Shown one piece after another: positions 4,456 through 61,800 of a DNA stretch of 64,000 nt. Under the pieces are notes generated by a model. The model saw nothing but the letters and a program-made list of their open reading frames with translations. It was not told the DNA's origin and made no database searches. The translations under genes were made by a program, and so were the position numbers. Positions within the stretch are counted from its first letter, which is position 1. Every line of letters begins with the position of its first letter. Source of the DNA: Pseudovirgaria hyperparasitica (taxonomy: Eukaryota); assembly GCA_010093815.1 (NCBI GenBank), contig ML996566.1. One strand, given 5' to 3'.

Positions 4456-4490
4456 GATTATTAGTTAAGGGCTACCCTTAACTAATAATC
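4456..4490. repeat. Perfect hairpin (16-bp stem, CTA loop) in the LINE 3' UTR
   Basis: GATTATTAGTTAAGGG-CTA-CCCTTAACTAATAATC. Confidence 0.9.
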
Positions 4491-4699
4491 GCGGTTCTCC
4501 CGGGGTTCTTCCGACGTATACCGGGGTTCTTCTAGTATATATCGGGCTTCTTCCGGTATATATACGCGGGTCTACTAGAACTAGGGGAGAGGAAGGTATA
4601 TAAGCATCTATCGGGCAACGTCCTTAGGGTACTTATTAAGCTATCGCGTAATATTAGAGGTCCTCGTTATACGGACGAGGGCTTATCTTAGGGTATAGA

Positions 4700-6032: not shown

Positions 6033-6270
6033 TATTAGGACGGGAACTACAACGGACCTATATAGACTATTCTAATCCATGCAGCCACGTAGTGGCCAGA
6101 GCTAGGTTAAGTTAGCTAAGTTAAGCGAGGTCACTATATAAGTGGACCGTATAAACCGATTCCTACTCGTTAGGAATTAACCTCGTATAAGAGTAAGATT
6201 ACTCTATAAATATATTCCTATATCTCTCTATAAACTATTAGACTACTATCCCACGTCTTTACTCTTTATA
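6033..6270 (+). repeat. 5' LTR
   Basis: Direct repeat of 13838-14075. Termini TAT...ATA are consistent with RIP-mutated TGT...ACA. Confidence 0.95.
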
Positions 6271-6311
6271 TTTTAATTCCTCTCTATATAGCACGATGGT
6301 AGCTTATAGAG

Positions 6312-10600: not shown

Positions 10601-11461
10601 CCTTAGACGGATAGCTAGATAGAGTAATAGAACTAGACGCTCGAGGCCTACCTACGCGCATTCTATAATTTTAAGTAGGACGACTAGGCCTCCCTACTAA
10701 GTATAGTAGAGTTTATATATAATAATAGTTATTATAGTATAATAGGTATTATACCTTTCTAGGCGAACCTCGGACGTAGTCTAAGGATAGATTTTAAGTC
10801 TTAGACGGTCTAATTTAATTAAATAATAGACGTAAACGTCCACGCTTAGGAATTAGCGATTAAAATCTTCGAAACCGTACGTAACTATCACGCTATAATC
10901 TAATAAGTAAACGACTCGTATACGAAGTACTATAATAGGTTAGCTAAGGATTAGACGTACGAGGAGGGCGATAAGGTCCTTCTTAATATCCGTAATATAC
11001 GAACGTCGTAAGTAAATAAGAAGCTCGATTATAAAATGGCTAGTCCCTTCCGAATCAAACGTCGTATCGGTATAAGAGTCTACGAGCTCGACTTAGGAAG
11101 TAACATAAGAATCTATAATATATTCCACGTCTTACTACTTAAAAGATTTCGACCTAACGTATATAGCCGCACGAACGTATAGTTATACTCTATTATACCC
11201 TAAGATAGACTAGACGTGTTTGAAGTAGACTATATTATCGAACATAGGATCGATAAAGACGGTGTTTAGAAATATAGAATCCGTTAGAAGGACTATACTA
11301 AGGATAAGAATACCTAGGAACCAGCGGTATATATCTTAAGTTCTATAATAGCTACGTATAAGTAAAAGATATAGAATAGCGTATTATTAATATAAGTATA
11401 GCGACGTCGCGGTCGTCGTAAAAAGAAGAAGAATACCATAGAGAACGAAGTACTAAACTAG
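7685..11461 (+). pseudogene. Gypsy pol: protease, RT, RNase H, integrase, chromodomain (RIP-destroyed)
   Basis: ILDSG (~7818); PxYGPIYPLxEPEL; KKKDxSLR; YLNN = ex-YLDD (~8812); VxTDAxGF (~9302); IVTDRGSTFTS (~10505); FxP*TDx*xE; xPF (~11042); chromodomain FEVDxIIEHR..YRIR*KDYTKDxNT*EP (~11219-11323). The end is approximate. Confidence 0.9.
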
Positions 11462-12045
11462 GAAATCCAGACGCGCACTAGGAAAACTCTATATAGTAGC
11501 CCCATAATTTAAGCATCGTATGGTTACTAGACGCGAAGAAAGCGTAAATAACCATTTTAGGAACGCGACGCGATATACTATAATAGAATAATATAGAAGA
11601 GTCTAGAATAGACTAATATAGACTATTATATACGAGAAAAACATAGGACTAAGAATCTAAAAAAAGGTACCCTACCATAGAATTAAACTCTTAATACGAA
11701 ATATAAAAGGTTAGAGTACCCGAACTAATAACTACTAGGCCACTAGTTTAGGTACTCTAATGGAATTCATAGAGATAAACTAATTTATATGCGGTGCCTA
11801 CACTTAGGTGACTTAAGGAAAATTAGAATATAGAAACCGATAGTTATAAGCTAAGCGAGCGTACACATAATATCGTTAAGTTAAGAATTAAATTACTAGA
11901 AACTAGCCGATAGGTATCTAAACGGTCTAAAAAGGACTAAAATGGATAAAAGCCAGGTAAATAGAGCCGGCGCGCACCACCTATAGTAGATCCAGAATAT
12001 ATAGAGCTAGGCATAGAACTAATATATAGAGCTAGAACCATAGAG

Positions 12046-13358
12046 CTACTTCTCTATCTTATTATCCGTCCTAATCTCTAGTATAGTCCTCTCTAACCGC
12101 ACGATATGGCGGTAGAGGACGACGACCTTAGCCTCTAGAGTAATAACCCGATCCGTTAGAGCCTAGAGGGAAGAGCCTTAAGCGCCGGAGCGTAGCGACT
12201 AGGTCTAAAGTTAGCTAACACGATCTAGAATAATCTAGAAGGGAATATATACCCTCTTACGAGGCGACTTAGAGAGAGAAATAGTAGACCTCTTATAAGA
12301 TCCGTTAGTAGCGCGAGACGGACGGGGGGGAATAGAGCGAATCCTCTCTACGGCCTCTATAGCTAGAATAGACTCCCTAGAATAGGTAGCCTAGGCGCTA
12401 GGGATCTCGCGGCGGCTAGAAAAATTAATGGGTGTTAAAAATAATTAACGTGCTCGTAACTTATACTTTAATAACCTCTAGGAAGAGCTTATAGCGCTCC
12501 CTAAACTCCCTCTATATAGTAGGTAGGCGGCTATAAGGACCCCTAAGGGTCTCGCGGATACGAAGGTCGTTATATATATCTTATATATATATAGGAACCT
12601 AAGAATATATTAGCGCGGACTACTTTAGATCATACTAGATTAAGATAGCCTATTATACTTACCTATAGATAAGTCTTACTAGTCACGGTATAGCGGCGGT
12701 AGCGGGTAGGTAGAGTAAAGATAGGGTATATAGGCCCGTCGCGGTTAGTAGAGTAGTAGCTAATACTAGAGTTAGAGCGAAAGAGATATTTAGAGCCGGC
12801 CGTATAGCCCTTAATGCACTTATAGTATATCGAACCGTAGTTCGCCGTTTTTCTATGGCGTAAACCGCGACCACGTTTAGTATCCTCGGCGACCTAGGCC
12901 TTATTATTAGTAGGCTAGAGTTTAGAGCGAATATTAAGGTCCTAAAAGGACCTAGAGCGACTAAATCGGTCTATATTGGACCGGAAGGAAGAGCGGCGAG
13001 ACGGCGGCGTGGGTAAGCGCGAGGGCTCGCGATCATCGTCTATGACGAGATCTTCTTTATCCTCTAGAGGAGGTAGAGTAGATAGCGTACGCTTTAGAGT
13101 GAGAGGAGAACCTATAACTACTTTATCTATAAGTTTAGTACTAGGATTACCTAGATTAGAGCGACTAGTAGCCATATTAGTGGCAGAGGTAGCAGTAGTA
13201 GTAGCCCTAGCTACTCTCTTCTCCGACTTAGAGCGCGCCTTTATACCACCGCGATAGGTAGGCTTCTTAGCCGGCGTGGCCGGGGAGGAGGCGATGCCTT
13301 TAGAGCGAGTCTTACGAGAGGAGGAGGTAGGCTTAGAGATAGGACTAGTATTAGATAT
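12046..13358 (-). pseudogene. Spliced antisense accessory gene inside the Gypsy element (4 coding exons, 384 codons; Cys-cluster plus coiled-coil protein), RIP-damaged
   Basis: Exons 13358-12663, 12598-12465, 12415-12253 and 12204-12046 join in one frame (696+134+163+159 nt). Introns of 64, 49 and 48 bp carry GTAAGT/ATAAGT/GTATAT donors, branch-like sites (GCTAAT, TTAAT, GCTAAC) and TAG acceptors. The internal stops read are TAG/TAA, as expected from RIP of CAG/CAA/TGG. Confidence 0.7.
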
Positions 13359-13820
13359 CTATATATACACGTTAGCTAGAGATCTAAGGAAGGAATATTT
13401 ATCTACCCTTAACGGCGATTAACGAAGCTAAATTAGTAACCGTAATAACGCGAATAGGTTATATAGGACCGGTTCTAATAAGAATAGACTACTATAGACC
13501 CTTCTAAACCTAAACTAGGGAAGATAGTATATGAATTAACGACTTACCTTAAGAGCGAGGTAGATATACTAGAGAATAAAATTAAAGGCGAGCGAAGCTA
13601 AATATATGCTCGACTAAAGTAGTAATTATATATCCTAGGTAGTAGCCACGAAGTAAGGGATAAGCGCGTGCATGAACTAATAAAAGTAAACTAGAATCTC
13701 GAGTTCACCTATATTAAGGATGGTTATAACGTTATAGGAACTTAGTCACGGATATATAGGTATACGATAGATTATAGAGACTTAGAATTATATATACTTA
13801 AGTACTTTAGGGCGAAGCAT

Positions 13821-13834
13821 AAAAAGAAGAAGGA
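13821..13834 (+). other. Polypurine tract (plus-strand primer)
   Basis: AAAAAGAAGAAGGA ends 3 nt before the 3' LTR. Confidence 0.8.
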
Positions 13835-13837
13835 TAT

Positions 13838-14075
13838 TATTAGGACGGGAACCATAACGGACCTATATAGACTATTCTAATCCATGTAGCCACGTAGTGG
13901 CTAGAGCTGGGTTAAGTTAGCTAAGTTAAGTAAGGTCACTATATAAGTGGACCGCATAAACCGATTCCTACTCGTTAGGAATCAACCTCGTATAAGAGTA
14001 AGATTACTCTATAAATACATTCCTATGTCTCTCTATGAACTGTTAGACTACTATCCCACGTCTTCACTCTTTATA
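13838..14075 (+). repeat. 3' LTR
   Basis: Direct repeat of 6033-6270 with no indels; about 14 differences by eye, all transitions. Confidence 0.95.
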
Positions 14076-14080
14076 CTTAT

Positions 14081-15830
14081 ATAGTTTACCTTATTAAACG
14101 CCCCTACTATATCTAGGGAGAGTAGCGTAACGACTCGTCCTTATTTCTATATAGTCTAGATAACCTTAAGGATATATTAAATAGCTATAATTAGGGAGCT
14201 TTCTACCTTCGCCTTCTGGTTTACTAGGAGAAGGCCGTATACCTATACTACTATACTTATCTTCTTAGTAATCGTAGCTTCTAGTACCTTACTAAGGTAG
14301 AAGAGGAGGGCGATCGGCCTCTATCCCTTCGGCGTGTTTAGGCTCTTCTCTAGTTTTAGGAGTATAACCGTATATATAGTTTAGAAGCTCTATGGGTAGT
14401 ATCCTATACGGGCGTATACTTAGAATATATAGCCTATAATTAGTAAGGTCGCCTATATGGTTCTCTTAAGGCATCAATTCGGAATTCTATCTAGCCCGGG
14501 CGCTTTATCGTTCGGGAGTATCTTAATGGCGCTAAGTATATCGTCGTCCGTGATTTCCCTAGGGATACTTATAGTTTCCGGGTATTCCGTGCCGTTAATA
14601 TCTAATAGGTCTATAGGTTCTAGGAGAGGGAATATAACCTCTTATAGGATCTCTATTTTCTCGAGGCTTATAGAGTATGTCTTTTCTTAATATATAAGGG
14701 GAGGTATAAGTGGTGTAGGTGTCGGGGAGGCGGTACTTTTAGCCTATTTTACTATATACCATAGTCTAGTAGTATTACGTGTGTGTCTATCCGTAACTAT
14801 ACGCTACTATTTACGTCGCTTATTACGGAGGACCTTATCTCGTTATCTTCTCGTCTCTCTCTATTTATCCTATACTTTAGGTATGCGGTTATAGTATACG
14901 TATATATATAATCTCCGGACTTCTCGCCTATACTCTCGTACTTAAGGTATACTTTTTAGGTCTAGGGGTCTATATATTTAGTACGGCACGTGTTTATCTC
15001 TTACTCCCTAGTATACCTATAGAAGTATATTTACGGCCTAGTCGATGGCCGGGCCATTAGATATGTCGACTATAGACGGGTCTAGGATCGTTAATTCTAG
15101 GTTCTTTAGGTACTTTTCCTAGTTAGTATCCTTCTATAGCTATCGCCCTCGTTAGTCTTAAGGGGTAGATACGTCTATTACGGTCTCTATATATTTATAG
15201 TCGGAGTCTATCTATATAAGGCTTAGGCGGTAGTATTAAGTCCTATTATAAATGTGTTTAGTAGCTAGGGTAAGGTCGAGTATAGATCCGCCCTTATCTT
15301 ATTTATATTTTCGCTAGGTAATCTATTCTACTAGTATAAGAAGGTAAAGGAAGTAGTGGTATTAGGTGTATAGTTCTCTAGCTCGAAGCTCTTCGCGGGT
15401 GACGGTTAGTCTATCCTACTAGCTATAATAGAGGTTAAAGTCTTCTAGAAGGATATGTTATCCTAGCTTAGTAGTACCCTTAAGCATATTATCTACCTAA
15501 AGCGATCGGTTCTAATTATATATATTATATATATAGAGGGGTCCGATATTCGTCTAGAGGTGTAGTATTATCTAGAGGTTATCCTATTTAGTATATAACT
15601 ATAATAAGAGTAGGATAGACTTATAGATATGGAAGAGGACTCTCCTCTCCGGTCCTAGGGGGTATATTATATAATATTCTAGGTGTGTTATTGGTTTGTT
15701 CGTCTGGTAGTATTTATATAGCTTCTATATAGTAAGTATTATAGCTCCGGTCTCCTTAAGGAGTATCGCCTGGTTCTTACGTTTATACTATACGTTTACC
15801 TATATAATTAGGAGTATATCTTAGTCTCTT
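14081..15830 (-). pseudogene. LINE ORF2 5' half: APE endonuclease and start of reverse transcriptase
   Basis: RIP-reverted motifs IIQANVQH, ILAIQEPY, HILLGDFNLHH, VLDLTLAT, IDSDH, then RPIALL and LLSLDIxGAFDKV immediately before the Gypsy insertion. Confidence 0.85.
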
Positions 15831-15834
15831 ATTA

Positions 15835-17292
15835 GGTGCTAGGGAATATATAGACCTATATATTTATTCCTCTAAGATGCGACTATCCTCATACGGCGGC
15901 GGCCTTAGTAATTCCTTAGGGCTATTCTATTATTAGCTTTCTTAGGATGGTTTACTATTCCTAACCGCTTCCTCGTAAGGAGGTAGTCTATAGTAGTAGT
16001 ATTATAGTAAAGAGAGGAACGGTAGTAGATCGCATCGTTTATAGCTACCTTACTCCCTTTATCCGGATTAAGTAGATATATTTAGTAACCTATTTACGTT
16101 TCGCGTACGTAGTCGACTATAACGGGTACTTACTATCGTAGTTAGAGTACTTCGCCGTATCCCTATCTCTCTAGCCCTCTCCTTATATCCCGTAGAGGCA
16201 CTCCTAGGTACTATATTCTTATCGATACTACCTATACCTAGTCTTTTAGGAGTACCGCTATGCCGTATACCTATATCTCTAATAGTTAAAGCACTATATT
16301 ATCGCCTATACTCTATCCCATGGTTCCGCTATAAGAAGCTCCCCTTCTACTAGGAATCCCTCTTACGTAATTTAATACGCGAGGGCGGGGTCCTTAAGCT
16401 CTACTATTATAGTAGAGTATACCTTTAATCTAGTTTTAATCCCTTATATATTCTTCTACCATACTCTTACGATCTTAATCCCTAGGTATTTTCGCTTATT
16501 TAACTATTCTATCCGCGTAATATCCTCTTCTCCGATAACCTATCCGCTTACGGGTATAGAGTATACCTATATTAGGTATATGGCCGCCCTAATAGAGGCG
16601 CCTAGGAAGATACTACTAATCGCGTTCGGATCGCGCGAGATAGTCTACTACACGATATTCGTTATTATGGTAAGTACTACTCCTTCTAGTATAAGTTTAG
16701 TAGTAATAATATTTAACTATATTCCCTTTTATTCGTTAATCTTACTTACTATATCCTTTAGGGATGCTTACTAGACCTATACTAGGGTGTCCTTATTCTA
16801 GATTATAACGCGTATACTATACGCCGCGTCGCCGGTCCGGGGGGCCCGTAGTATAGCCTCCGGTGTTACTACTATTTATACCTATATACTAGGGCGCTTA
16901 CCTTAAGTAAGTTCCTCCTAGATTCTATATAGGCTAGCCTCTATTCGGTTAAGCCTACCCTCCGGTTCTCCTAGTTATATCTTCTTCTCCTCCTCTATAA
17001 TTCTCTTTAGGTTCCGGATAAGGTCCTAGAATATATATAGGAGGGTCTTCTAGCCCTCTCCGGCTTCCTTCTCTATATATACTACCTAGTAGTTAATATA
17101 ATCTAGAAGGGTTTCCCCTCTTAGGGTCCCCTTTATTCCGTCTATCTATAGCGGCGTGCGCCTTTAGGTATATTCTACGTTTTAGATAGGTATATAGCTA
17201 CCCTTAGTAATATCGCTATATAGCCTTTTCTATTATACCGGTGGGGGTATATCCGGTATATACTAGGGTATATCGGTGCCTAAGGCCACTAT
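15835..17292 (-). pseudogene. LINE ORF1 (gag-like nucleic-acid-binding protein), RIP-destroyed
   Basis: Around 16105-16290, reverting TA to CA/TG gives QCFNCQRYGHTAQRC, RCGQCRQEHSTQEC and KCSNCDGKHPSWSTTC. Probable start ATA (ex-ATG) at 17292. The 3' boundary is approximate. Confidence 0.8.
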
Positions 17293-17293
17293 A

Positions 17294-17326
17294 TTTATTA
17301 GTTAAGGGCTACCCTTAACTAATAAA
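17294..17326. repeat. Perfect hairpin (15-bp stem, CTA loop) in the LINE 5' UTR, same core as 4456-4490
   Basis: TTTATTAGTTAAGGG-CTA-CCCTTAACTAATAAA. Confidence 0.9.
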
Positions 17327-18287
17327 AGGGGGTCGGCGTATTGGCGTTCTAGTAGTGTAGTCCGTGCCTCTATCTCCGTAAGGATTTTAAGAGGGTATAT
17401 ATATATCTTTATACGGCGATAACGTCTTAGTTTCGACGCTATATGTACGTACGTGTGGTAGTAGTTAGTGTACTTAGTATACTCTATTGATTAAGGTATG
17501 TATCTCGCTGTATTACCCCGAATGGACTAAGTTGGCCTCTTGGGGATGTAAAAGAAGTTTTTTATCTATAATATATCCATTAGATTCTATATGAATACTT
17601 TATATAAGAATATGTTGTAGAATAGCTCTATTACTATCATTCTCAAGATAATTTATAAGAGAATGAATCTCTGATAGATATATTGGAAGGCTTGTAGACA
17701 TATTTCGAGCAGCGAGTGAGAAACAGCCGACAGAAGCCACGCAACAGGAGGTCTCAATACTCACTAACTGTTTTGACTTCATTTTTGTGACGCGGCCTTT
17801 GCGCAGGAACACATCAGCGATCGGTGAGTATTGAGACACCCGGTTGTGCTGAAGCGGTCACGCATCAGCATGTAAGATGTCTAATTCGTAACGCCCGCTT
17901 GCACCACCTGGTCAACGATAACTAGACATTGAACAGGTAACAGCATCGAGGCTTTGTGGTATGTCTCGCAAAGGGGCGCGTCCTACACGCTCCAACCTGG
18001 CATTGACAGAGAACTTTCGTTGGGATGTGGCTGTGACTGTTTTACTCAGACCCTGCTACTATCTTACAAGTGGAGAGGCAGGTTAGACAGCTTGCAGCCC
18101 TCCTCATCAGGGGATTTATGATAAATGAGCGTGAATTCCGACTATTTACTCTACTTGATAGAACAAACTTCACCTTCTGCCTTTGGTCTTCGCGTGTATT
18201 CTAGGAGAACGCAATATACGAAAAGCCCCTGACTCAACCAAAGTCTGGTACATTACAGAAGGAACTCGTCTCACGGAAACTAGCACG

Positions 18288-39717: not shown

Positions 39718-41292
39718 ATGATTGTTACCTCCAATTGTTGTTTACGACGTACTTTCTTCGCCCTTACTACCAACTGTCCTCCTCGATCGCTGGCGAAACA
39801 GCAGACGCTCTCCATCCGACGGCGAGCGCTTTCGTGTAGTATGACTCGATCGGATCCATTCAAGCCCGCAGCGCGCGTTGCTGGTCAGCGACAAGATGTT
39901 TGGTGAGACAATTATTATCTCCCGCTAGCCTAGAGACTCATGTTTTCCTCCTCGCAGGACTATTGTAAACGAGGCGGCGGCGGCGGCACCTGAACACCTT
40001 CAGCCTGTCGTGAACATGGGGCAGGGCTTCTTTGGCTACAACCCACCAGACTTCGTCCTTGATGCGGCGAAATCTGCTCTAGATAGAGTCGAATGTAATC
40101 AATACTCGCCCACAAAAGGCCGACCCAGGTTAAAGAAAGCGCTTGCCGATGCATACTCGCCTTTTTATGGAAGGAAGCTTGATCCCGAGAAAGAAATCAC
40201 AATCACAACAGGAGCCAATGAAGGTACACTAGATAATTATATACCGAGTACACCGGAGTGAACTAACACATGACCGAAGGAATGCTAAGTGCCTTCATGG
40301 CATTCATAGAAAAGGACGACGAGGTCATTGTTTTCGAGCCTTTCTTTGACCAATATGTCAGTAATATCGAAATGCCAGGAGGCAAGGTTGTCTATGTGCC
40401 TATGCACCCACCTCTACAGGGCGCAATGAAGACGACATCGGCTGCAGAGTGGTCGATAGATATGAAAGAGTTGGAGAGTGCGATTACCCCAAAGACGAGG
40501 ATGATAGTTTTGAACACGCCTCACAATCCTATCGGGAAAGTGTTTTCAAAGGCTGAACTGCAAGCTATCGGTGATCTCTGCGTGAAGCATCAGATCATCA
40601 TATTATCAGACGAAGTCTACGACACTTTATACTACGTCCCCTTCACCCGAATCGCGACACTGTCTCCAGAAATTGCGAAACTTACTATGACTGTTGGCTC
40701 AGGCGGAAAGAACTTCTACGCAACTGGCTGGCGCGTGGGCTGGCTTATCGGGCCAGAACATTTGATAAAATACGTTAGTGCTGCGCACACTCGGATTTGC
40801 TATAGCAGCGTCAGTCCGCTACAAGAAGCTACCGCAATTGGTTTCGAAGAGGCTGAGAAGCATGACTTTTGGAACAAGTCAAAGAAGGAGATGCAAGGCA
40901 AGATGAAGAAATTCAACACCATTTGGGATGAATTAGGACTTCCAGTAAGTGTCAGGTCCTGTCAGAACGCAATGGTATACGATCACTCACACCTGTCACA
41001 GTACTCTGATCCAGAGGGTGGATATTTCGTCCTGGTTAATATGGCCAAGGTTCAATTGCCCGAGGATTATGTGTTCCCGGATATCGTAGCTGACCGCCCG
41101 CGCGACTTCAAGTTATGCTGGTACCTCATCAAGGAGCTGGGCGTGGCTGCGATACCACCGACTGAGTTTTTCACCCCTGAGAATGCTCACATTGTCGAAG
41201 ACTGGTTGAGATTCGCTGTCTGCAAGAATGACGATATCCTAGAGTCAGCCCAAGATAGATTGAGGAAAGGTCTTAAACAGTATATCAAATAG
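39718..41292 (+). CDS. BNA3: Kynurenine-oxoglutarate aminotransferase (PLP class I/II)
   Basis: NMGQGFFGYNPP; TTGANEG; LNTPHNPIGKVF; SDEVYD; GSGGKNFYATGWRVGW (PLP Lys); LRFAVCK. Three introns. Confidence 0.9.
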
Positions 41293-41562
41293 AAGTTTGG
41301 AACTAATGCATAGCCTGGCACAACAGGCAGCAGTTAAATCCGCTGTCCCGACTATTGTGTTGCTATCATTATGTGTAGTGTCTGTTTGCATCATAGGTCA
41401 CGTTGTATTTACAGCACTAGGATGCGGATGAACCGTGTACATCAAACGACAAGAAGACCGCCCGGTACCCTATGCGATGCCAACCTCATGCAAAATGCAA
41501 TGCACCAATGCACCAGGTCCCCAAACCGAGCCAACGCCACGCATGCAGACATATTACAACCC

Positions 41563-42478
41563 TCACAATCCTAAGAATACAAGCATACCACCACCGCCGA
41601 AACTCGCTATAGCAATTCCGATTCCTAGCGTGGCCCACGTCCAGAGACTATTCTTTGCGTCCATGCCGATTTTGACTGCCGCACTGTCAGTCTGCTCCGG
41701 CAACGGCTCGACGCCTAACCCACCACTTCCGCCGCCGCCACCTGTCCCGCTCGCACCCGGCACCGCAGTCAGTTCCGCTTCGAAGTGCTCGGCTTCGAAC
41801 ACAATTTCCTCGCTGGCGAAGTAGGTCTCGGTGCCGAACTGCACGAGGCCGATGTAGGTTTCGTACGGAATCAGGCCGTATCGGGGGAGGGCGTGGATGA
41901 GCGGCGTAACGTCGCCGGTGAAGGACGTGACGATTGTGGGCGAGACCCAGGAGTATACGGTCTGGCCGTTCGAGTTTGAGCCGTTGTACAGCGTGCTGTG
42001 TATTGCCATGTCAGTTCAACACGGGAGTAACAAAGAGTGTAAGTCAGGAACAACGCACAAATCGACGCCTTCGAGGGTCATATCGAGGATGCCGTTCGCG
42101 TCGGCGGCGAAGCCGATGGGCTGGCTGGCATCGCCCAGACGCGCAAACCAGATCATGATCTCGTACATCTGCTGGCTGGGCTGGGCGCTGCGGTCGCGGT
42201 CGGCGTCGCAGAAGAGGTCCATGACGACGTTGGCCTGGGTGCCGATGCCGGCGAGGGCGTCGGCGTTGGGTTGGGTGTTTGGGTCTTTGCTGGCGCTGCT
42301 GTCGAGGCTGCGCGGGGCCATGCTCCATGCGAGGGAGACGCTGAGGGATTGTAGCTCGGAGATCTGGATGGGGAGGGTGTCGGATTCGTATTGGAGGCGT
42401 GGGTACGCGTGGACGCGTGGAGGCGCGGAGAGCCAGTGCCAGATGGCGGAGAAGGCTGGTGGTGAGGAATCGGGGACC
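41563..42478 (-). CDS. Glycoside hydrolase family 12-like protein with C-terminal hydrophobic (GPI/TM-like) tail; N-terminal exon not resolved; intron ~41994-42058
   Basis: VHAYP, ANVVMDLF, YEIMIWFARLGDASQPIG (nucleophile Glu), F|TLYNG, FTGDVTPL and VQFGTE (acid/base Glu), then a Gly linker and a hydrophobic terminus. Confidence 0.8.
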
Positions 42479-42752
42479 TTGTACAAGTCAGCTTTGCATA
42501 CGCATCCATAGTGACCGACTTTTCCGCCATTTTTCACACTACATGTTTATGATGAACAGTATTCATAGTACAATTGTTCGTGAGGCCGTATTGATATGCA
42601 TTAATTATTTCTCTCTATCTATAAGATACTATTTAATCTAAATTATTCCGCCGGCTGCTGTGAAAAGGGGAGGGGGGTATCCAGCTCAAAAGGCTTCCAA
42701 GTTATAAAAAAAAAGCAACAAAAGAAAACCAAAAAAAAAAAACCACCAAAGT

Positions 42753-45438
42753 TCAAATCTTGCCCGCCCACAGCAAGAACCGGTGAGCGAGGAAGAGATT
42801 GAAAGCAGTCAAGACGAGTAGCGGAATGGTATCATACCAGTGCAGCCTATGCCCCAGCGTCTGATACACGATACCAGCAACCGTCAATCCCACAATCGTC
42901 GTGTTCCACACCCACGCCACAATCCGCATCTCACGGAACTCATTGCTCTTGTGCACCTTGCTGTCGCCCGACGCCACCCACGTCAAGCCACGGCCGAGGA
43001 TACGCTTCTTGATCGCGGCGGCGTACGCGTACATCTGGATCTGCTGGATGAACTGCACGTTGAAGCCGTACTCGGCCTTGGCCCAGGCGCGGATGATGAT
43101 CAGGCCGTAGAGCACCGAGGGCACGGCAAAGGCCAAGTTGTAGTAGCGCACGTATTCGGGCCGGATCCAGATGAGGAGCATACCGGGGAGGGGCGCCATG
43201 AAGATGGAGAGGACGACGGCGGAGTAGTAGAGGAGACCGCAGAGGAAGCAGATCTTTTGCATGCGGTTGAGCGGCGATTTCCAGAATTCGGGGTTGGTTA
43301 CGAGGGTGGTTGAGCCCTGTGCGGATGGATGTTAGTGGACTGTTACATATTTGGATCGGAAAGAAGTGTGCTGGGAGAACGTACCATGGCCCATCTCATC
43401 TGCTGGCTGAAGTACGCGCGCGGTGTATCAGGACAGACACCACAAGCCAGACAAAGCGGCAGATAGCGCAGCTTCCACCCACGACACATCGCATAGAAAC
43501 CCGTGTGCACATCCTCCGAGAACCCAATCTCAGCCGTTCCACCGACCTCGACAAGCGACTCACGGCGATAGATAGCATTGCTGCCTACACACACCGACGC
43601 ACCCCATTTATTCCGATTCGTCTGCACAACACGGTAGAACACCTCCTGAATCGCACCCGCACCCTGCTCAACCCACGACTGATCCGTCGTGGTGCGGAAA
43701 AACTGCGGCGTCTGCACAATACACGTATCCGGGTTGGCGAGATGCTCCGGCATAATCTCGAGCAGGAAGTCCGGACGAGGGCAGAAATCGGCGTCAAAGA
43801 TGGAGAAGAAGGGCGCTTCGGTGCGGGCAAAGGCGTAGCGGAGGTTACCTGCTTTCTTCAGGTGCGGGCGGTTGTCGCGGACGATGTAGTTGTAGCCGAA
43901 TTTTGTGGCGAGGGCCTTGACGTTGTCGTCGGCGCCGTCGTCGAGGACCCAGACTTTGATCTTGCCTTCGGGGTACTGCAGGGCGCTGACGTGGTTCCAG
44001 GTGTTTTCGAGGATGACCATGGGCTCCTTGCAGACGGGGAGGTAGATGTCGATGTCGGGGGCGGTGACGGGGTCGATGGGGTTCTCGGCCAGGATCTTGT
44101 TGTGCTCTTCCATGTTGAACTCGCCTCCACAGACTGAGGTCAGGTAGGAGACGATCATGTAGAGCTGGAGGAAAGCGACGAATGCACCAAACCAGTAGAA
44201 AGCAACCGATGAGAGGACGAACAGCCACATACCAGCAGAAAGACTGCAGAACGCCAACACACCGATTCCATGCAGACCGAGACGGTTTGTCTTGAGATAT
44301 AGGACTTTCTCGGCGTCGGTTGGTGCTGTGGGCAAGACGAGCGGCGGCGACTCCGTAGGGCAGTATACACGTCTATACCACGCCTTGAAGCGAGGCCAGT
44401 AGTTGCCCTTAGTCTGTGCCGGTGTAGCAACTTCATCTACCGTGACTGCTGCGCCGGCGGACGCACTCTCGGGGTCTTCAATATCGATGGGTCCCTCTTG
44501 TTGATGCGGAGTCGAGCCAGGCACAACTGGAGCAGGGCCTGCTGACGGAGCCACCAAGGCCTTCGGACGGGCGGTGTCTGCGAACCAGTCATGATGGTCG
44601 GACTCTGTGCTTGTTGCGGCGGCAGCAGCGGCAGCAGTTGCGTTCAGCTGGGAGGAAGAAATAGAGCGTCTTAATGAAGCGCGAGCCGCCTTGTCAGAGT
44701 TCTCATTGTTGGTATCGCTTGCGGTGATACTCCAGCGTCGACTGACTGGGCGGCCGACAAGAGCTTCATCCTGTCCTGGCACCTGGCTTTCGTCGACTGA
44801 GTCGGGGCGAGAGACGGCACGGCTGGATGTATTGACTGAGTTGTCGTCTGCGCTGGATTCGGTGGGCGTTGCGTTCTGGCCCGAAGCTCGCTTTATTTGG
44901 TCCAATCGTATGCGTACCAGGCGGGGGTCAGCGGGGAAGTAGCTGTTATTTTGAGTGACTGAGCCATCTAGCGGGGTGTTGATGTCCTATTCCTCAGATT
45001 AGCTTCATATCGCGGAAGGCATTCATGTTGTGAAGGTGAAGTTTGAGTATAGGTGAAGTGCTAAGAGGTGCGGTAGGCCACTACCATATGCGCAATGAAC
45101 TTCAGTACAGGAATCCAACTTACAGATTGGCTTTCATAGGCTGAAGAGCGAGATCCAGCTTGATCATGGGTAAGGTCCGGCGTTGCGTCGAAAGAGCGAA
45201 CACTGTTTGTGCCACTATCACCACTATTGCTGCGAGCCTCCTGAGGAACCTTGGGGACCTTGTTCTCACGTCCCCCCTTCAGAAGTGTTTGGACTCTAGC
45301 AGCCAGAGGGGCAGCAGTCTGTCCAATAGTCCCACTGTTATCCTCGATATTCTGCTTGCCGGGTTGAACAACATTGTCGCCAAGAGAAACTTGTTGGATC
45401 TCGTCAGCAACAGCTGAACTGTCGATTGGCGCGGGCAT
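42753..45438 (-). CDS. Processive GT2 glycosyltransferase, cellulose-synthase (BcsA/CelA)-like; introns ~44987-45123 and ~43316-43384
   Basis: DIYLPVCKEP, VLDDG, KKAGNL, FDADF, QTPQFF, SEDVHTG and QQMRW (D,D,D,QxxRW). TM helices on both sides and a long low-complexity N-terminus. Confidence 0.92.
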
Positions 45439-47185
45439 TGCCTTATTCTCCGTGACACGGGGGGGGCTACGAAAGACCCGAAGCGAGGAGATATTTCTGA
45501 AGTGAAGGCTTTGTTGTTCAATCGAAGAAACAACTAGAGCAATGCTGGGAAGAAAGAAAGTCCAACCAGCTAGACGACGGGGCGTGAGGGCGAGTCTAAT
45601 ATCCCGTGGGGCTGTTGTGGCTATCACGAATGGACAGAACTTTCCATGCACGCGCTTTTTGAACAGCCTGTCCCACGCCAGGCCAGGGCGGAAACGCCGC
45701 ACAATCTTCGAGGCCCCAAGTGAAGTCTAGCACCCAGGAGACCGCGATTCTCTCTCTCTAACACATACCTCCCCCAAAGGCTGGATCTGTCAGTATGCAT
45801 AAAACGCCACCATCCAGCAGGGATTGAGGCTACGGAATGAGAAAGCGTGCATGGTATGGGCAGCAAGCACATGTGCCGCATTGGGGACACCGGCGCGATG
45901 CGATCCACAACAACAATCCGACTTTGGGGAGGGAGACACATGCTGGCCTGGCTCAATTAGCTACCGAGACCGGGTGGTGGAAACAACAACACATGTCGAA
46001 ACAGGGGGCTGAAGCTTTTCTCACGGGGCTGCAGTACCGCTCAGTAGAAAAAAAAAATAAGTCATTGCCGATCTGGGTCGCGGGCGGTCCGCCGTGTTCG
46101 ATACCTTTTCGGTCCGATAATTAGTCTGGCGCCAACCACAGGCACCGAAGCGAGTTGCCGCCCTAGGGGGGTCCTCTGGCCCACCGCGGAACCAAATCTA
46201 GACCTGGGACTGCTGACTAGCAGCCTTTGCACGCACGACAAGCCTTCTGCCTCAGCTGGAGGTTTTGTGCGGATCGTGTTCATCACGGCTAACGCTGCGC
46301 ATATCTCTTGGCAATCACAACGCGGTTGGGAGACAAGCTCGCCCCAAGGTTCTTCGTCTGGCAAATCAATTTTCGTGGAGATGAAAGGGGAATGCCGCTG
46401 CCCAGAGATAAAACGTCAACAAGCAAAAGTCTGGCTCTGACAATCGTCTTGGCTTTGTCGATAGACCCTGCAGCATCGCCCTCTCGTACACCGCTCCAGC
46501 CCAGGGCCTCGACAACGAATTTTTTTGGAGCAAGAAAGTAGTCAGGCGGGATGCGTGTTTGTTTGACGTGTCACAACACCTCGACAACAACGTAGCCGGA
46601 GGAAGTGACTCAGCTACCGTGGTATTGGTCGGAGATTACTCTGAACCGTACGGGAGGAGAGTGGGAGAGTGGGCATGCTGTCGAACTTGTGGCGCTTAGG
46701 GGGTTATACTTGAGGAAGATAACCCCATCTTTCGGGCCGCGCTATGCCCGATAAAGCCAGCAGTCAATGGTTAAGAGACGGGTGTGTCCTGTATGATACC
46801 CCACCTAGCTCACGTAGAAACAGTCATGACCGGGCGTACCCACAGGGCCACGAACCTTAAACGGACCATGGACAGTTCACTCACCACAAAGGGGGCGTGT
46901 CTATCACGATTAATCGAGTGAACTATCTGAGAATCTGCAAACGCAATAAAAGTCATAGGAATTGATTCGCTCTCTATACAACAGTCCATAAAGAACGGCA
47001 CGCCAAAGGGTACCATTAGTCCTCCTAGTTAGTCTAATACGTGCGCTATGGTATAATCAATCAATCAACCCCTAATATCGCTCAATACTCTTCTTCACCC
47101 AGGTGTCCACCCAATACTCTGCCCACCGCGCGCTCTAGCAATTAAGGCAGAAAAACAAAACAAAACAAACCCCCCAAAAAATGAT

Positions 47186-49124
47186 CTACCGCCGCCGTTC
47201 TCGTGTCCCCATACACCCAACACTCTCCACCCTAAACCCCAGCCCTTCAAGAGGCCCCGTCTCCACCACCCCCCTAGCGTCGAACACCCAGCGCGGTAGT
47301 TCCATAGCAGGCGCGATCTTCTCCCACTGAACCTGCGCCGTGGAAGCATGCTTTGCCGCGCCAGTCTGCTGTCCTCGCGCACACTCGCCGCACCCAGCAT
47401 CACACTCGGGCTCCACCGCAAACGCCTGCGGCATCTGCTTCGCGGCCCAGCGCTTCGCGGGCGTGAGCTGGCTCTGGATATGTGCGAAGCGTGACAGCGC
47501 GTCCTGCAGCTTTGCGGATCCGGCCTCGACGTTGAGACTGGCTTCGGGCAGGGGAGGATAGCGGAATTGATCCCACTCGGTGAGGATGAGGACGGCGGAC
47601 GTGCCCTCGCAGGCCTCGTAGGGGTCTGCGTATGCGCGGATGGCGGTGCAGGAGGGTAGGTAGGCGCGCATTTCGGACTCGATGTCTGCGGGGGCGCAGC
47701 CGGGGTCGTAGATAGAGATTTCGGTGGGGCCTTCGGCGGCGAGTTGCTGGATGACGGGGATGGCGAGGGATTCGCGGGTGTCGCCGGTGTTCTTCTTGAA
47801 AGCGTAGCCGAAGACGGTGACGCGTTTGCCGAAGAGGGAGCCGTTGAGGGAGTGCATGACGCGGTGGACGAAGCGGTTGCCTTGCCATTCGTTCATGGCC
47901 ACGACGCTCTTCCAGTAGGCGGCGACTTCGGGCAGGTCGAGCGATTCGGCGAGGTAGGAGAGGCTGAGGATGTCCTTCTTGAAGCAGGATCCGCCGAATC
48001 CGAGGCCGGATCCGAGGAATTTGGAGCCTATTCGCGGGTCTTGGCCGACTGCTTTGGAGATGTCTTTGATGTTTGCCCCTGTCTTCTCGCAGATGGCGCT
48101 GATGGAGTTGATGCTACTAATCCGCTGCGCAAGCATAGCGTTGGCAACCAGTTTCGCGAGTTCGGAAGACCAGGTATGGACATGTAGAATGGCTGATTCT
48201 GGCACCCAGCTGTAGACAGACGCCAGTCGCTTTGCTGCTGCAAGACCAGCGCTTGAAGTGCTCGAGCCGATAAGCACACGTGATGGATGTAGTAAATCTG
48301 AAATTGCCGTTCCTTCTGCCAAAAATTCAGGATTTGACAAGATCTCAAACGGTACGCCCGGTCGGTAAATGGATAACTGGCATATGTCAGCTCAACTGTG
48401 TTTCTGTTGTCAATGAACGGACGTACAATTTCTTGCAAAACTTCTGCCGTCCGACACGGCACTGTGCTTTTCTCCACAATGATCGATCCGGGCTTGGCTA
48501 CACGAGCAATAGAACGCATCACCGACTCGAAAATCGCAGTGTTGGTTGCGGATCCTGCGCCTATGCCGCGCATCTTCGTTGGTGTATTCACGCTCAGGAA
48601 CACAATATCTGCTTCCGCGATACTTTGGTCGCAGTCTGTAGAGAAGAACAGGTTTGGCGCGCGGCCTTGGATGGCATTTTGGCCGTGAGTATTGATACTT
48701 GACGTGCCGTCCCGGGCAACTCGCACAACATCGTACAGTCCAGGCTCGTGAATCGGAAGGTGCTTTGAATTCCACCTCCGGATCCTCGTGGCGTCTTTGT
48801 CGACTACTGTTACTTTGATGTTGGGATTTGCGAGAGCTACTACGGCTGCTGTAGGTCCGCCTGGAAACGTAATTTAGTATCAATCAGTAAGTATACAGAG
48901 AACGAGACTGCCTTACCAACATAGCCGGCTCCCACGAAGCATACTTTAGATACTTGATTCACTTCATTTTGACCAGCGGCCAAGGAGTCTTGATTTCTTG
49001 TGACTGTAGTCGAGGGTCCGTCACCATCAGACAGCGAGGAAACACTCGACGTCCGAGATAGAATGGGAGAAAAGAACGGCGAGGTATTCTGAGAATGCTC
49101 CGAAGGAGTAGAAACAGCCGACAT
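47186..49124 (-). CDS. UDP-glucose 6-dehydrogenase; two introns (~48862-48914, ~48378-48425)
   Basis: VGAGYVG|GPTA; LPIHEPGL; SVNTPTK; EKSTVPC; SNPEFLAEG; SSELAKLVANAMLAQRISSINS; GFGGSCFKKD (catalytic Cys); AFKKNTGDTRES. Confidence 0.95.
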
Positions 49125-54069: not shown

Positions 54070-55916
54070 ATGGTAAAAGCGAAGACGAGAGCGAGCACAA
54101 AGAAGGCAGCGGCGGCACAGGTTGTCAAAGTGCCCCCTAAAGCCCTCCCGGTCACTCTCCTATCAGGCTTCCTGGTGATTATACACTGTCCAGAAGCAGG
54201 ATATCGTCGTACTGATCAGGACTTTTAGGGAAGTGGAAAAACCACCCTTCTTCAGCATATCCTGCGTAGCGAGCATGGTCTCCGCATCGCCGTCATCGTG
54301 AACGATATTGGAGCCATCAACGTCGACGCATCTCTTATCAAACAGACTCACCATCTCACCCGTACAGAAGAGAAGGTCGTAGCGCTCCAGAATGGCTGCA
54401 TCTGCTGCACGCTTCGTGGCGATCTCCTCGAGGAACTCGTCCGTCTCGCCGAGCTGCAGTCTTTCGACTACATCATCATCGAGAGCAGCGGCATCAGCGA
54501 ACCTGAGCAAGTCGCCGAGACATTCGACGCTCGCCTCGCTGAAACGATGAACGAGATGGGCGAAGGACCAGAAGGTCTCGACGAGGCCATGATGAAAGTC
54601 CTTGAGCAACTGTAAGTCCTCCTGACCAAGAATATCAGACAAAAACATCAAAGCTCACTCGTCCCAGCAAACAAGCCGGCGGCCTCGAGAAATTCGCCCG
54701 CCTCGACACCACCGTCACCGTCATCGACGCCTTCACAATCTACCACGATTTTGAGACCACAGACCTCCTCTCCAGCCGCCGCGACGACGTGGTGCCCGAA
54801 GACGAGCGCACCGTCTCCGACCTGCTCGTCGACCAGATCGAATTCGCCGACGTCATCATCCTCAACAAGACCGATCTCGTGTCCCCGTCCACGCTGGAAT
54901 CCATGCTCACGCTGATCAGAAAGCTCAACCACCGCGCCAAGATCATCACCTCCAAGTACAGCAAAATCGACGTCAAGGAGATTGTCAACACCGGCATGTT
55001 CAACCTCGAGCGCGCCCAGACCGGCTATGGCTGGCTGCAGGACCTGCACGAGATGACGCTGCGCGAAGTCAACGGCCGCAAGGCCATAGCACCCAAGCCC
55101 GAGACGGAAGAGTACAACGTGCGCAACTTTGTCTACACACGCCGCCGGCCCTTCCACCCTCTGCGGCTGTTCCAACTGCTGCACGACAAGTTCATCCTGC
55201 AGCTCGAGCACGGTGACGACGAAGAGGACGACGACGAGGCCATGGACGAAGACGAAGAGGAAGAAGAAGACGAAGACGACGAAATGGCCGACGCCGACGC
55301 TCACTCCTCGGACGCGTCGCCCGACGGCTCAGCTACATCTGGCGACCCGGTCGAGTACCCCGAGGTGCCCGAAAACGACGTCGTGCTTGCGAACAAGAAG
55401 GCCCATCCGTTGTTTGCGCGCCTGTTCCGCTCCAAGGGCGAGTTTCACCTTGCCACGCGGCACCACCGCGCCGGTGAGTGGTCGCAGGCAGGTGCCATGC
55501 TCACCCTGTCTGGAGGCCGGCCATGGTTCTGCACGATCCCGTCCAGCGAGTACGTTACTGGCAACGCGGAGATTGACGCGTTGGTCGAGCACGATATTGC
55601 TGCCGGTGGAGAATGGGGCGACCGAAGACAGGAGATCGTGTTCATCGGAGAGGCGCTGAATATCAAGGGTATTGAGGCAGTGCTAGACGAATGTCTGTTG
55701 ACGGACAAGGAGATGTCGGTCTGGGAATCGATCATGAGGGACAAGGGACTGACTGTAGAAGGGAAGATGGATGCGTTGGCAGATGCTTTCGATGACGGAT
55801 TTCCAGAGTGGCCGGAGGAGGAAGAGGAGGGCCATGAAGGACATGGACATGGGCCTGGAGAGCATGGCCTGAAGAGGCCGACTCATCGTATTACAAAGGA
55901 TGGCGTTGTGAGGTGA
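54070..55916 (+). CDS. CobW/COG0523 (ZNG1-type) metal-chaperone GTPase; two introns
   Basis: [35 protein letters not shown] (CxCC); [42 protein letters not shown]; acidic insert and His-rich tail. Confidence 0.95.
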
Positions 55917-60577: not shown

Positions 60578-61800
60578 TTACTTCTTCCGCGCAGCGCACA
60601 CTTCCGCTGCCCCGCTCGCCTTCCACGCGCCTACTATCAGCTCCACGATCCCGTCCACGCCCTTGCCGTTCTTGACCTGTGCGAAGATCGTAGGCCCGCC
60701 TTCCCTGTTTCCCCAGACATATCGTCGTCAGCACTTTTCTTCTTTTCTTTCTTTCTTCGTCACCTAACTAGCGAGAGAGCTCTCCCTCCACTTTTGAACG
60801 CATGTCATATGGATGACCAAGACAGGGCAAGGCAAGAAGATATAGGGGTAAAGGAGGGAGGGGACATAAAGTAGGACAAAAGGCAGGAAAACCACGCACC
60901 GCATCTTCCGCGCATCCCTCTCCATAACCCCCAAATCACTCCCCACGGCATCCGCAATATCCGTCTTATTCACAACCAACAAATCACTCTGCGTGATCCC
61001 TGGCCCCCCTTTGCGCGGAATCTTATCCCCACCACTAACATCAATAACATAGATGATGTAGTCCGCCAGCTCGCGACTGTAGTTTGCCGCCAGATTGTCG
61101 CCGCCGCTCTCGATGAGGAGGATGTCGGTGGCGTGTTGGCGGTGGAGGTCCTCGAGCGCGGCGAGGTTGGTGGAGATGTCCTCGCGCACGGCGGCGTGCG
61201 GGCAGCCGCCGGTTTCGATGGCGCGGATGCGCGCGGCGGGCAGGGCGGCGTGCGCGATGAGGAAGTCGCCGTCTTCGCGTGTGAAGATGTCGTTTGTCAC
61301 GGCGGCGATGGAGTGGGTGTCGCGCAGGGCGAGGCAGAGTTTGAGCTGTGTTGGGCGAGGGGGGGTTAGAGTGTCAATTTGCGCGTTGCTATGTTTGCGG
61401 GAGGTAGTCTTGGGTAGTTTATGCGTACCATGAGTGCTGTGGAATATATACAGTTAGCCTTGACTATATCTCCATCAAGAGTAGAAAAGGTAATTAGGAG
61501 ACCCAAAAAAGAAACTACACACCAGTCTTGCCCGAACCTACAGGTCTACAAGTTCTTTCAGTCAACAGCCGTGATTCTCTTCTGTACCCGGGCAATTTCC
61601 CAGGTCGCAGTCCTGCTTCAAACCACCTACCCGCCTATCCCAACCGTAAACGCTCTTTCCCGAAAGTTCCGTCCGTCAACAATGGGCATCTCGCGGCCTA
61701 GGTACGAGCCTGGTCCGTCCAGGATCTCGTGGCTGTGGCCGTGGTCGCCGCCACCCGCGTGGGAGTGGCCGGCGCCGTCGTGGGAGTGTGACTGGGCCAT
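60578..61800 (-). CDS. ureG: Urease accessory GTPase UreG, 5 exons including 23-nt and 8-nt micro-exons
   Basis: His-rich N-terminus; [69 protein letters not shown]. Confidence 0.95.

What the first reader, a model, noticed from the sequence alone, without database searches (positions are those of the whole stretch)
41563..49124. Co-oriented UDP-glucose dehydrogenase + cellulose-synthase-like GT2 + membrane-anchored GH12: candidate polysaccharide-synthesis cluster
Seen: three adjacent minus-strand genes encode a precursor enzyme (UDP-Glc to UDP-GlcA), a processive D,D,D,QxxRW synthase, and an endo-beta-glucanase-family hydrolase with both catalytic Glu and an anchor-like tail. Established: bacterial synthase loci pair a GT2 with a precursor enzyme (hasA/hasB) or with an endoglucanase (bcsA/bcsZ). 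Ascomycete CelA/Tft1-like GT2s have been linked to mixed-linkage glucan. Inference: this trio may make and process a uronic-acid-containing or beta-1,4/mixed-linkage wall or matrix polymer, such as a glucuronan. I know of no defined fungal pathway for that.
Basis: partly seen in the sequence, partly recalled or inferred. Interest (0 to 1): 0.75.

Follow-up and report, generated by a model that had tools for sequence, protein, structure and literature searches.

The report
Conserved fungal acidic-polysaccharide gene trio
Three neighbouring fungal genes (a sugar-acid precursor enzyme, a membrane polymer synthase and a glucanase) stay together in many moulds and probably make an unidentified, possibly acidic, surface polysaccharide; in this copy the glucanase has lost its front end, while a complete second copy lies elsewhere in the genome.

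Summary
The UDP-glucose dehydrogenase (UGDH) and the BcsA-like GT2 synthase are intact and spliced. The GH12 keeps both catalytic Glu and its tail but lacks signal peptide and first three exons, so it is probably a remnant. A complete second trio lies on contig C27. The linkage is real: consecutive accessions in 8 of 8 species looked up, 8 of 120 GT2 hits fused to GH12, 6 distinct full trios in metagenomes, in several gene orders. In Neurospora the orthologue NCU08226 and UGDH NCU08228 share a regulator peak and co-expression module. The GT2 is not TFT1/CelA (26% to the genome's TFT1-like gene). Its bacterial relatives sit with an acetyltransferase, a different glucanase and, in 12 of 61 loci, an unrelated-type UGDH. 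Best guess: a secreted beta-glucan containing glucuronic acid; chemistry is inferred, not shown. Ten literature searches found no description. This scan noted the same trio earlier in Podospora (e1-7136713).

The parts
47186..49124 (-). UDP-glucose 6-dehydrogenase gene, 3 exons (49124-48917, 48860-48427, 48376-47186), 610 aa, eukaryote-type, intact catalytic motifs
   Evidence: intron 1 spliced
42753..45438 (-). Processive BcsA-like GT2 synthase gene, 3 exons (45438-45124, 44986-43385, 43316-42753), 826 aa; about 300-aa Ser/Ala-rich N-terminal extension, D,D,D(SED),QQMRW, membrane helices on both sides of the catalytic domain, no PilZ match; orthologue of Neurospora NCU08226
41563..42477 (-). 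5'-truncated GH12 gene: exons about 42477-42059 and 41995-41563; catalytic Glu codons at 42162-42160 and 41829-41827; Gly/Ser linker and hydrophobic tail; no signal peptide or N-terminal strands
41996..42058 (-). 63-nt GH12 intron, spliced in both public runs
42478..42752 (-). 275-bp spacer between GT2 stop and the first surviving GH12 exon; ends in a branch-point and acceptor-like remnant; holds only out-of-frame ATGs; covered by two unspliced contigs that overlap by 33 nt (42519-42551)
45439..47185 (-). UGDH-GT2 intergenic region; no missing GH12 exon found here (one weak 18-nt candidate at 45786, not credible alone)
39929..41292 (+). Convergent class I/II aminotransferase gene; flank, not part of the trio; joined with the GH12 remnant in one contig

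Best explanation
This is one of two copies in this genome of a conserved Pezizomycotina polysaccharide module. UGDH oxidises UDP-glucose to UDP-glucuronic acid in the cytosol (family function; motifs shown). The GT2 polymerises UDP-sugars and pushes the chain through its own membrane channel (inferred from the BcsA fold and motifs). A surface-anchored GH12 trims or releases the chain outside, as BcsZ does (inferred). The most likely product is a beta-linked glucan that contains glucuronic acid, made by the GT2 from UDP-Glc and UDP-GlcA, for wall surface or mucilage (inferred, not shown). In the window copy the GH12 has lost its promoter-side exons and is probably inactive; the complete C27 GH12 can serve in trans. 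My odds by step: real conserved module 0.92; window GH12 truncated 0.85; UDP-GlcA feeds this polymer 0.6; GT2 itself uses it 0.45.
For: Linkage: second trio at G000:C27:157763-166588 in another order. Consecutive protein accessions in 8 of 8 species looked up (chosen for matching contig lengths): Cadophora DSE1049 and Glonium (all three functions), Mollisia and Zymoseptoria (GT2+UGDH), Rhexocercosporidium, Bombardia, Cercophora newfieldiana, Parathielavia (GT2+GH12). 8 of 120 listed GT2 hits are GH12-GT2 fused gene models. 10 of 80 metagenome loci hold all three genes, 6 distinct after collapsing near-copies, in two further layouts. Co-regulation: NCU08226 is in the 90% cluster of hit P0032, 57% identical to the window GT2; NCU08226/27/28 share one NUC-3 peak; NCU08226 and NCU08228 TPMs correlate r=0.99 and 0.87 over 6 samples each and share 1 of 28 WGCNA modules. 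Donor argument: the genome's third UGDH also sits beside a glycosyltransferase, a GT4; bacterial relatives of the GT2 have a UGDH within 8 kb in 12 of 61 close loci, often co-oriented, and that UGDH is only 29-36% identical and apart in the tree, so the pairing probably arose twice. No UDP-xylose synthase was recognised in the genome. Glucan argument: 37 of 61 close bacterial loci carry GH26, GH6 or GH16; best structural matches are BcsA.
Against: No biochemical data for any member. 49 of 61 close bacterial loci have no UGDH nearby, and 12 of 61 versus 0 of 19 distant GT2 loci is not significant (Fisher p=0.06; loci not independent). Agaricales-like locus L107 and the divergent ascomycete-like loci L119/L120 have neither partner in 10 kb on each side. 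Every active-site motif checked is the same in fungal and bacterial members with or without UGDH, so no residue marks an acidic donor. The closest solved enzymes make neutral cellulose. NCU08227 is in no WGCNA module and correlates less well (r=0.48, 0.69), while the unrelated neighbour NCU08225 is in the module, so regional co-expression may contribute. Deleting NCU08226 gave only more biomass (PMC3364853). That NCU08227 is a GH12 is recalled and inferred from spacing, not shown by a call.
Confidence: 0.52

Rival explanations
1. The GT2 makes a neutral beta-glucan (cellulose-like or mixed-linkage). UGDH supplies glucuronic acid for side chains added by an unlinked transferase, or for another glycan made at the same time.
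For: Best sequence and fold matches are BcsA (E 5e-32; TM 0.54-0.56). Partner hydrolases are neutral-glucan families. 49 of 61 close bacterial loci, L107 and L119/L120 lack a linked UGDH. Patel and Free list ncu08226 among possible lichenin synthases (PMC6796803).
Against: UGDH stays linked through several rearrangements and a duplication and is the best co-expressed partner. No side-chain transferase lies in either trio of this genome. The genome has separate TFT1-like genes for mixed-linkage glucan.
Confidence: 0.27
2. The GT2 is the unknown fungal beta-1,4-glucuronan synthase and uses UDP-GlcA alone.
For: Tight UGDH linkage. The genome has one PF14099 polysaccharide lyase and Neurospora has an annotated glucuronan lyase. 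Bacterial loci carry an O-acyltransferase in 45 of 61 cases, as acetylated bacterial glucuronan would need (recalled).
Against: GH12, GH6, GH16 and GH26 are not known to cut polyglucuronic acid (established knowledge); a lyase would be expected, and only one locus examined had one nearby (PL8 in L065). No channel residue specific to UGDH-linked members.
Confidence: 0.1
3. UDP-GlcA is only an intermediate: it is turned into UDP-xylose or UDP-galacturonic acid, and the product is a xylose- or GalA-containing glycan.
For: GH12 includes xyloglucanases; one bacterial locus has GH10 with GT2 and UGDH (L029); the genome has an unlinked 4-epimerase-like gene (L178).
Against: No UDP-xylose synthase recognised among the best PF16363 matches inspected (21 matches, 8 read, 2 compared with PDB). 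No epimerase or decarboxylase inside either trio.
Confidence: 0.06
4. The window copy as a whole is a decaying duplicate with no function, or the three genes are neighbours by inheritance only.
For: GH12 is truncated. Window UGDH and GT2 have longer end branches than the C27 copies (0.77 vs 0.44; 0.41 vs 0.20).
Against: UGDH and GT2 frames and motifs are intact and spliced. Window versus C27 GT2: pN 0.16, pS 0.86 over 137 codons; GH12 core pN 0.34, pS 0.76 over 211 codons. At least four gene orders keep the same three partners while flanks differ.
Confidence: 0.05

Closest known systems
Bacterial cellulose synthase BcsA with endoglucanase BcsZ
   Same: Fold and D,D,D,QxxRW motifs; best PDB matches by sequence (E 5e-32) and by fold of an orthologue model (21-23% identity, TM 0.54-0.56); linked endoglucanase.
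   Different: Far below the BcsA cut-offs (165 of 699 and 136 of 992 bits); SED for TED, QTPQ for QTPH, CVGS for FCGS; no PilZ match, no BcsB; GH12 rather than GH8; linked UGDH.
Aspergillus fumigatus TFT1 / A. nidulans CelA, fungal mixed-linkage glucan synthase (bioRxiv 10.64898/2026.09.17.752320)
   Same: Fungal single-subunit processive GT2 of the cellulose synthase superfamily.
   Different: TFT1-like proteins share 70-96% identity with TFT1 and a switch motif. A similar motif is in G000:C9:583k, which matches the window GT2 at 26%; it is not in the window GT2 or in any protein stored at that time. TFT1 itself could not be fetched for a direct alignment.
Streptococcal hasAB (hyaluronan) and pneumococcal type 3 cps3DS loci (recalled)
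   Same: A UDP-glucose dehydrogenase next to a processive GT2 that uses UDP-GlcA: the logic proposed here.
   Different: Hyaluronan synthases match only by fold (12-15% identity, ranks 12 and lower); those loci have no glucanase; type 3 synthase was not compared by any search.
Neurospora crassa NCU08226 (gt2-4), NCU08227, NCU08228 (gld-2)
   Same: Orthologous GT2 (57%) and linked UGDH; co-regulated.
   Different: Mentioned only in passing in print; product unknown. Peak distances (2671, 518, 1308 bp) fit the layout UGDH divergent from GH12 then GT2, unlike the window.
Actinomycetota GT2 + AT3-SGNH acyltransferase + GH26/GH6/GH16 (+/- UGDH) loci
   Same: Nearest non-fungal GT2s (45-56% over the catalytic 230 aa); same synthase-hydrolase-precursor logic.
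   Different: Acyltransferase instead of none; different hydrolase families, no GH12 in 80 loci; bacterial-type UGDH. I found no description of these loci either.

Membership tests
Processive GT2 polysaccharide synthase (cellulose synthase superfamily) | D, DxD, (T/S)ED and QxxRW motifs | tested here: met
Processive GT2 polysaccharide synthase (cellulose synthase superfamily) | Membrane helices flanking a GT-A domain, BcsA-like fold | tested here: met
   hydropathy of window protein; AlphaFold model of the Mollisia orthologue P0008, pLDDT 83, top matches BcsA
Bacterial cellulose synthase BcsA | Score above the CelA/PRK11498 cut-offs; PilZ domain; BcsB partner | tested here: not met
Bacterial cellulose synthase BcsA | Makes beta-1,4-glucan from UDP-Glc | not testable with these tools
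   needs an assay
TFT1/CelA mixed-linkage glucan synthases | 70% or more identity to TFT1 and its switch motif | tested here: not met
   indirect: motif-like stretch in G000:C9 gene, which is 26% identical to the window GT2; TFT1 sequence itself not fetched
Hyaluronan / type 3 capsule synthase loci | UGDH gene linked to the synthase | tested here: met
Hyaluronan / type 3 capsule synthase loci | Synthase sequence of the HAS or Cps3S type | tested here: not met
   no HAS among 11 PDB sequence hits; 12-15% identity by fold; Cps3S not compared
Hyaluronan / type 3 capsule synthase loci | Synthase uses UDP-GlcA | not testable with these tools
   no diagnostic residue found
UDP-glucose 6-dehydrogenase | NAD-binding, central and C-terminal domains; catalytic Cys, Lys, Asp motifs | tested here: met
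   best PDB hit E 2e-130
GH12 endoglucanase (window copy) | Two catalytic Glu | tested here: met
GH12 endoglucanase (window copy) | Complete beta-jelly-roll with N-terminal Cys pair and N-x-W strand; signal peptide | tested here: not met
GH12 endoglucanase (C27 copy) | Signal-like N-terminus, complete domain, two Glu, hydrophobic tail | tested here: met
   335-aa model without stops, identical in sequence to library protein P0362

The most novel reading that the evidence does not exclude
Many filamentous ascomycetes make an undescribed glucuronic-acid-containing beta-glucan with a single bacterial-type GT2, and fungi and Actinomycetota independently placed a UDP-glucose dehydrogenase and a glucanase beside that synthase. 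This would be the first defined pathway for an acidic beta-glucan in these fungi.
Probability: 0.42. Interest if true: 0.85.

Novelty: new variant of a known kind. Interest (0 to 1): 0.62.

Why it matters
Fungal wall and mucilage polymers beyond chitin and the main glucans have few known synthases; TFT1 was shown to be one only in a 2026 preprint. This trio gives a second, distinct lineage with its precursor enzyme and processing enzyme attached. It occurs in Neurospora, Podospora and plant-associated genera such as Zymoseptoria, Verticillium, Fusarium and Colletotrichum (GT2 hits; linkage shown for a subset). A Neurospora knockout already exists (FGSC17911) and a yeast expression assay is published, so the product is directly testable. 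An acidic beta-glucan would bear on adhesion, metal and water binding, fruiting-body matrix and host recognition, and would be a new polymer synthase for biotechnology.

Tried and rejected
1) Real GT2-GH12 fusion protein: the 8 fused database entries have GH12 first, with signal peptide and often a mangled junction; separate genes with consecutive accessions exist in relatives; in the window the order is reversed, stops lie between, and no splice joint links the two. Read as gene-prediction merges. 2) Hidden GH12 5' exons in the window: six-frame motif scan, tblastn, an N-terminal HMM (weak: the true C27 exon scored only 4.4 bits) and a micro-exon scan. The first micro-exon scan failed its positive control; the corrected one found both C27 micro-exons and three window candidates, none near or convincing. 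An own-genome search with a full-length relative found no extra N-terminal piece, but it also missed the C27 micro-exons, so it is insensitive. 3) In-frame 23-codon extension upstream of 42477 as coding: GC3 0.43 against 0.78 for the core; none of the 150 listed hits aligns to its first 15 residues; a chance Cys motif remains. 4) Conserved Arg pair on the first interface helix as a mark of an acidic product: present in 28 of 29 fungal and 10 of 10 bacterial rows regardless of UGDH; not diagnostic. 5) Expression level: no RNA holder listed; the two runs are contigs of one sample, depth cannot rank genes, and parts of UGDH have no cover. 6) UGDH tree did not give one clade for cluster-linked genes: fungal base unresolved, quick method only. 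7) Literature: searches returned no paper on this trio; one search returned three papers naming NCU08226 or NCU08228; one search gave the TFT1 papers. In one search one gene id was recalled and unverified, it had no hits among the rows listed, and 'gld-2' swamped the list with worm papers. Subscription journals are not searched, and the TFT1 preprint's supplementary tree could not be seen. 8) search of earlier findings by sequence gave nothing.
Full report
Source and gene models. The window is G000:C2:2121074-2185073 of a 35.4-Mb fungal assembly; the UGDH is identical to a protein deposited for Pseudovirgaria hyperparasitica. Three minus-strand genes lie at 41563-49124. UGDH has three exons and 610 aa; GT2 has three exons and 826 aa; both are free of stops. 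Pfam gives the three UGDH domains, GT2 and GH12. Contigs from two public runs of one sample skip both GT2 introns, UGDH intron 1 and the GH12 intron at canonical ends. The runs are not on record as RNA; that they are cDNA is my inference from these joints.

The GH12 is incomplete. Aligned with its C27 paralogue and eight full-length relatives, the window GH12 lacks about 60 N-terminal residues: signal peptide, first conserved Cys and the N-x-W-N strand, which align with the first strands of solved GH12s. In C27 these are a 130-nt exon and two micro-exons of 23 and 27 nt; the resulting 335-aa protein is in the public library. Only 275 bp separate the GT2 stop from the first surviving exon. A scan that recovers both C27 micro-exons finds no convincing equivalent in the window. 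One contig runs unspliced from 42059 to 42551 and another from 42519 to 43317; they overlap by only 33 nt, so a break or a distant exon joining at 42520-42550 is not strictly excluded. The first in-frame ATG (42321) follows eight out-of-frame ones. The surviving 283 codons have no stop and show pN 0.34 against pS 0.76 versus C27 over 211 aligned codons, so the loss is probably recent. Inference: a transcribed remnant, perhaps cut when GT2 moved between UGDH and GH12.

A second copy and a third UGDH. The genome holds GH12 (C27:159069-157763, minus), UGDH (C27: about 160.2-162.5 kb, minus) and GT2 (C27: about 164-166.6 kb, plus) together, with different flanking genes. The third UGDH (C20:371 kb, 49%) is divergent from a GT4 gene. 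So each UGDH in this genome sits beside a glycosyltransferase.

Conservation in fungi. The GT2 has 772 longer relatives at E<=0.001; the 120 listed span Dothideomycetes, Leotiomycetes, Sordariomycetes, lichen fungi and some Basidiomycota. Eight of the 120 are gene models in which a GH12 is fused in front of the GT2. For three more proteins (Dothidotthia, Lepidopterella, Septoria) the partner accession was not looked up. Locus tags agree in Pseudocercospora eumusae (8278/8280), Elsinoe (071910/071920) and Cercophora LCS_1 (880/881). Among 80 metagenome loci, many short and about half bacterial, 10 hold all three genes (6 distinct), one more has GT2+UGDH of fungal type and two have GH12+GT2 at contig ends. 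Layouts are GH12>GT2>UGDH and UGDH divergent from GH12>GT2, besides the two in this genome. Misses: L107 (Agaricales-like) and L119/L120 (divergent ascomycete-like) have no partner in 10 kb each side; L114, L110, L124 and L172 have none on the one long side held.

Co-regulation in Neurospora. NCU08226 is a member of the cluster of hit P0032, 57% identical to the window GT2. In PMC12506109 (one passage of the preprint version; supplement rows) NCU08226 and the UGDH NCU08228 are directly repressed by NUC-3, and NCU08226/27/28 share one peak. Their TPMs correlate at 0.99 and 0.87 in two sets of six samples; NCU08227 at 0.48 and 0.69. In PMC7084071 (passages; supplement rows) both are in the same one of 28 modules, NCU08227 in none, and the neighbour NCU08225 in the same module, which warns of regional effects. 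PMC6796803 (passages and section 7) lists ncu08226 among seven GT2s and says it rises in perithecia. PMC3364853 (passages and supplement rows) reports more biomass and unchanged cellulase activity on deletion. NCU08227 is 'hypothetical' in these tables; its identity as GH12 is recalled and fits the spacing only.

What kind of synthase. Sequence and fold are closest to BcsA (the model is of the Mollisia orthologue), but scores are far under BcsA cut-offs. It is not the TFT1 lineage: the preprint 10.64898/2026.09.17.752320 (parts 1-4 of 5 read; supplements closed) defines that lineage at 70-96% identity, and the genome's gene with a TFT1-like switch stretch matches the window GT2 at 26%. PMC10374906 (passages) does not mention this family. 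In a FastTree tree the 32 fungal GT2s form one group (100) inside bacterial sequences, consistent with a bacterial origin; direction was not tested with a rooted clade test.

Bacterial relatives. Of 80 genome loci, 61 match at 45-56% and are mostly Actinomycetota, many Gordonia, so not independent. Of the 61, 45 carry an AT3-SGNH acyltransferase, 37 a GH26, GH6 or GH16, and 12 a UGDH (neighbours of part of the loci, 103 proteins, were scanned with Pfam and the rest counted by tblastn). None of the 80 has a GH12. The 19 distant loci have no UGDH (p=0.06). The bacterial UGDHs are 29-36% identical to the fungal one, which is of the eukaryotic type. So both partners, hydrolase and dehydrogenase, were probably recruited separately in fungi and bacteria.

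Mechanism. Shown: intact UGDH and GT2, conserved linkage, co-regulation of orthologues, a secretable anchored GH12 in the family. From family knowledge: UGDH gives UDP-GlcA; BcsA-type GT2s polymerise and translocate; GH12, GH6, GH16 and GH26 cut neutral beta-glycans. Inferred: UDP-GlcA has no recognised onward route to UDP-xylose here (lower-bound search), and no second transferase is in the trio, so the simplest consumer is the GT2; the hydrolases imply glucose in the chain. Hence a Glc/GlcA beta-glycan (0.52 with side steps), then neutral glucan with separate GlcA use (0.27), pure glucuronan (0.10), xylose or GalA route (0.06), decaying or incidental linkage (0.05).

Novelty. Synthase + precursor + hydrolase loci are a known bacterial design. 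Ten searches of the held library found no description of this fungal trio or its product; subscription journals were not covered. What this window adds: a duplicated cluster, a truncated GH12, the exclusion of TFT1, Neurospora co-regulation and the bacterial parallel. Verdict: real, conserved, uncharacterised and easy to test; new variant of a known kind; interest 0.62.

Noticed in passing
G000:C20:368511-372727 (L016): A GT4 glycosyltransferase gene is divergent from the third UGDH: a second UGDH-transferase pair, possibly for a glucuronosyl lipid (guess from recalled GT4 lipid synthases).
   Followed up: partly
G000:C27:157763-166588 (L013, L014): Complete paralogous trio; the better target for experiments than the window copy.
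   Followed up: yes
L017-L074, L081, L082: Actinomycetota loci of GT2 + AT3-SGNH acyltransferase + GH26/GH6/GH16, with or without UGDH: a likely acetylated exopolysaccharide system for which I found no paper.
   Followed up: partly
window 54163-55916 (+) and 60764-61453 (-): Two CobW/COG0523-type GTPase genes face each other within 7 kb.
   Followed up: no
window 39929-42551: The aminotransferase gene (+) and the GH12 remnant (-) are joined in one contig in both runs, suggesting overlapping 3' ends.
   Followed up: partly
L144:4120-7155: Bacterial-type locus with GT2, NAD-dependent epimerase and a short UGDH-like gene in one row.
   Followed up: no
G000:C13:483634-484488 (L178): 787-codon open frame with an N-terminal hydrophobic stretch and a nucleotide-sugar 4-epimerase-like domain closest to bacterial enzymes.
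   Followed up: partly
G000:C9:583017-583694 and C6:1460880-1461149 (L007, L008): Two further processive GT2 genes; the C9 gene has a stretch like the TFT1 switch motif and is the likely mixed-linkage glucan synthase.
   Followed up: partly
window 4000-18000: AT-rich block (GC 0.35-0.42) with few long ORFs, against 0.48-0.57 in the rest.
   Followed up: no
window 47330-47420 and paralogues: All three UGDHs carry a C-terminal insertion with a C-x3-C-x2-C pattern absent from the aligned solved enzyme.
   Followed up: no
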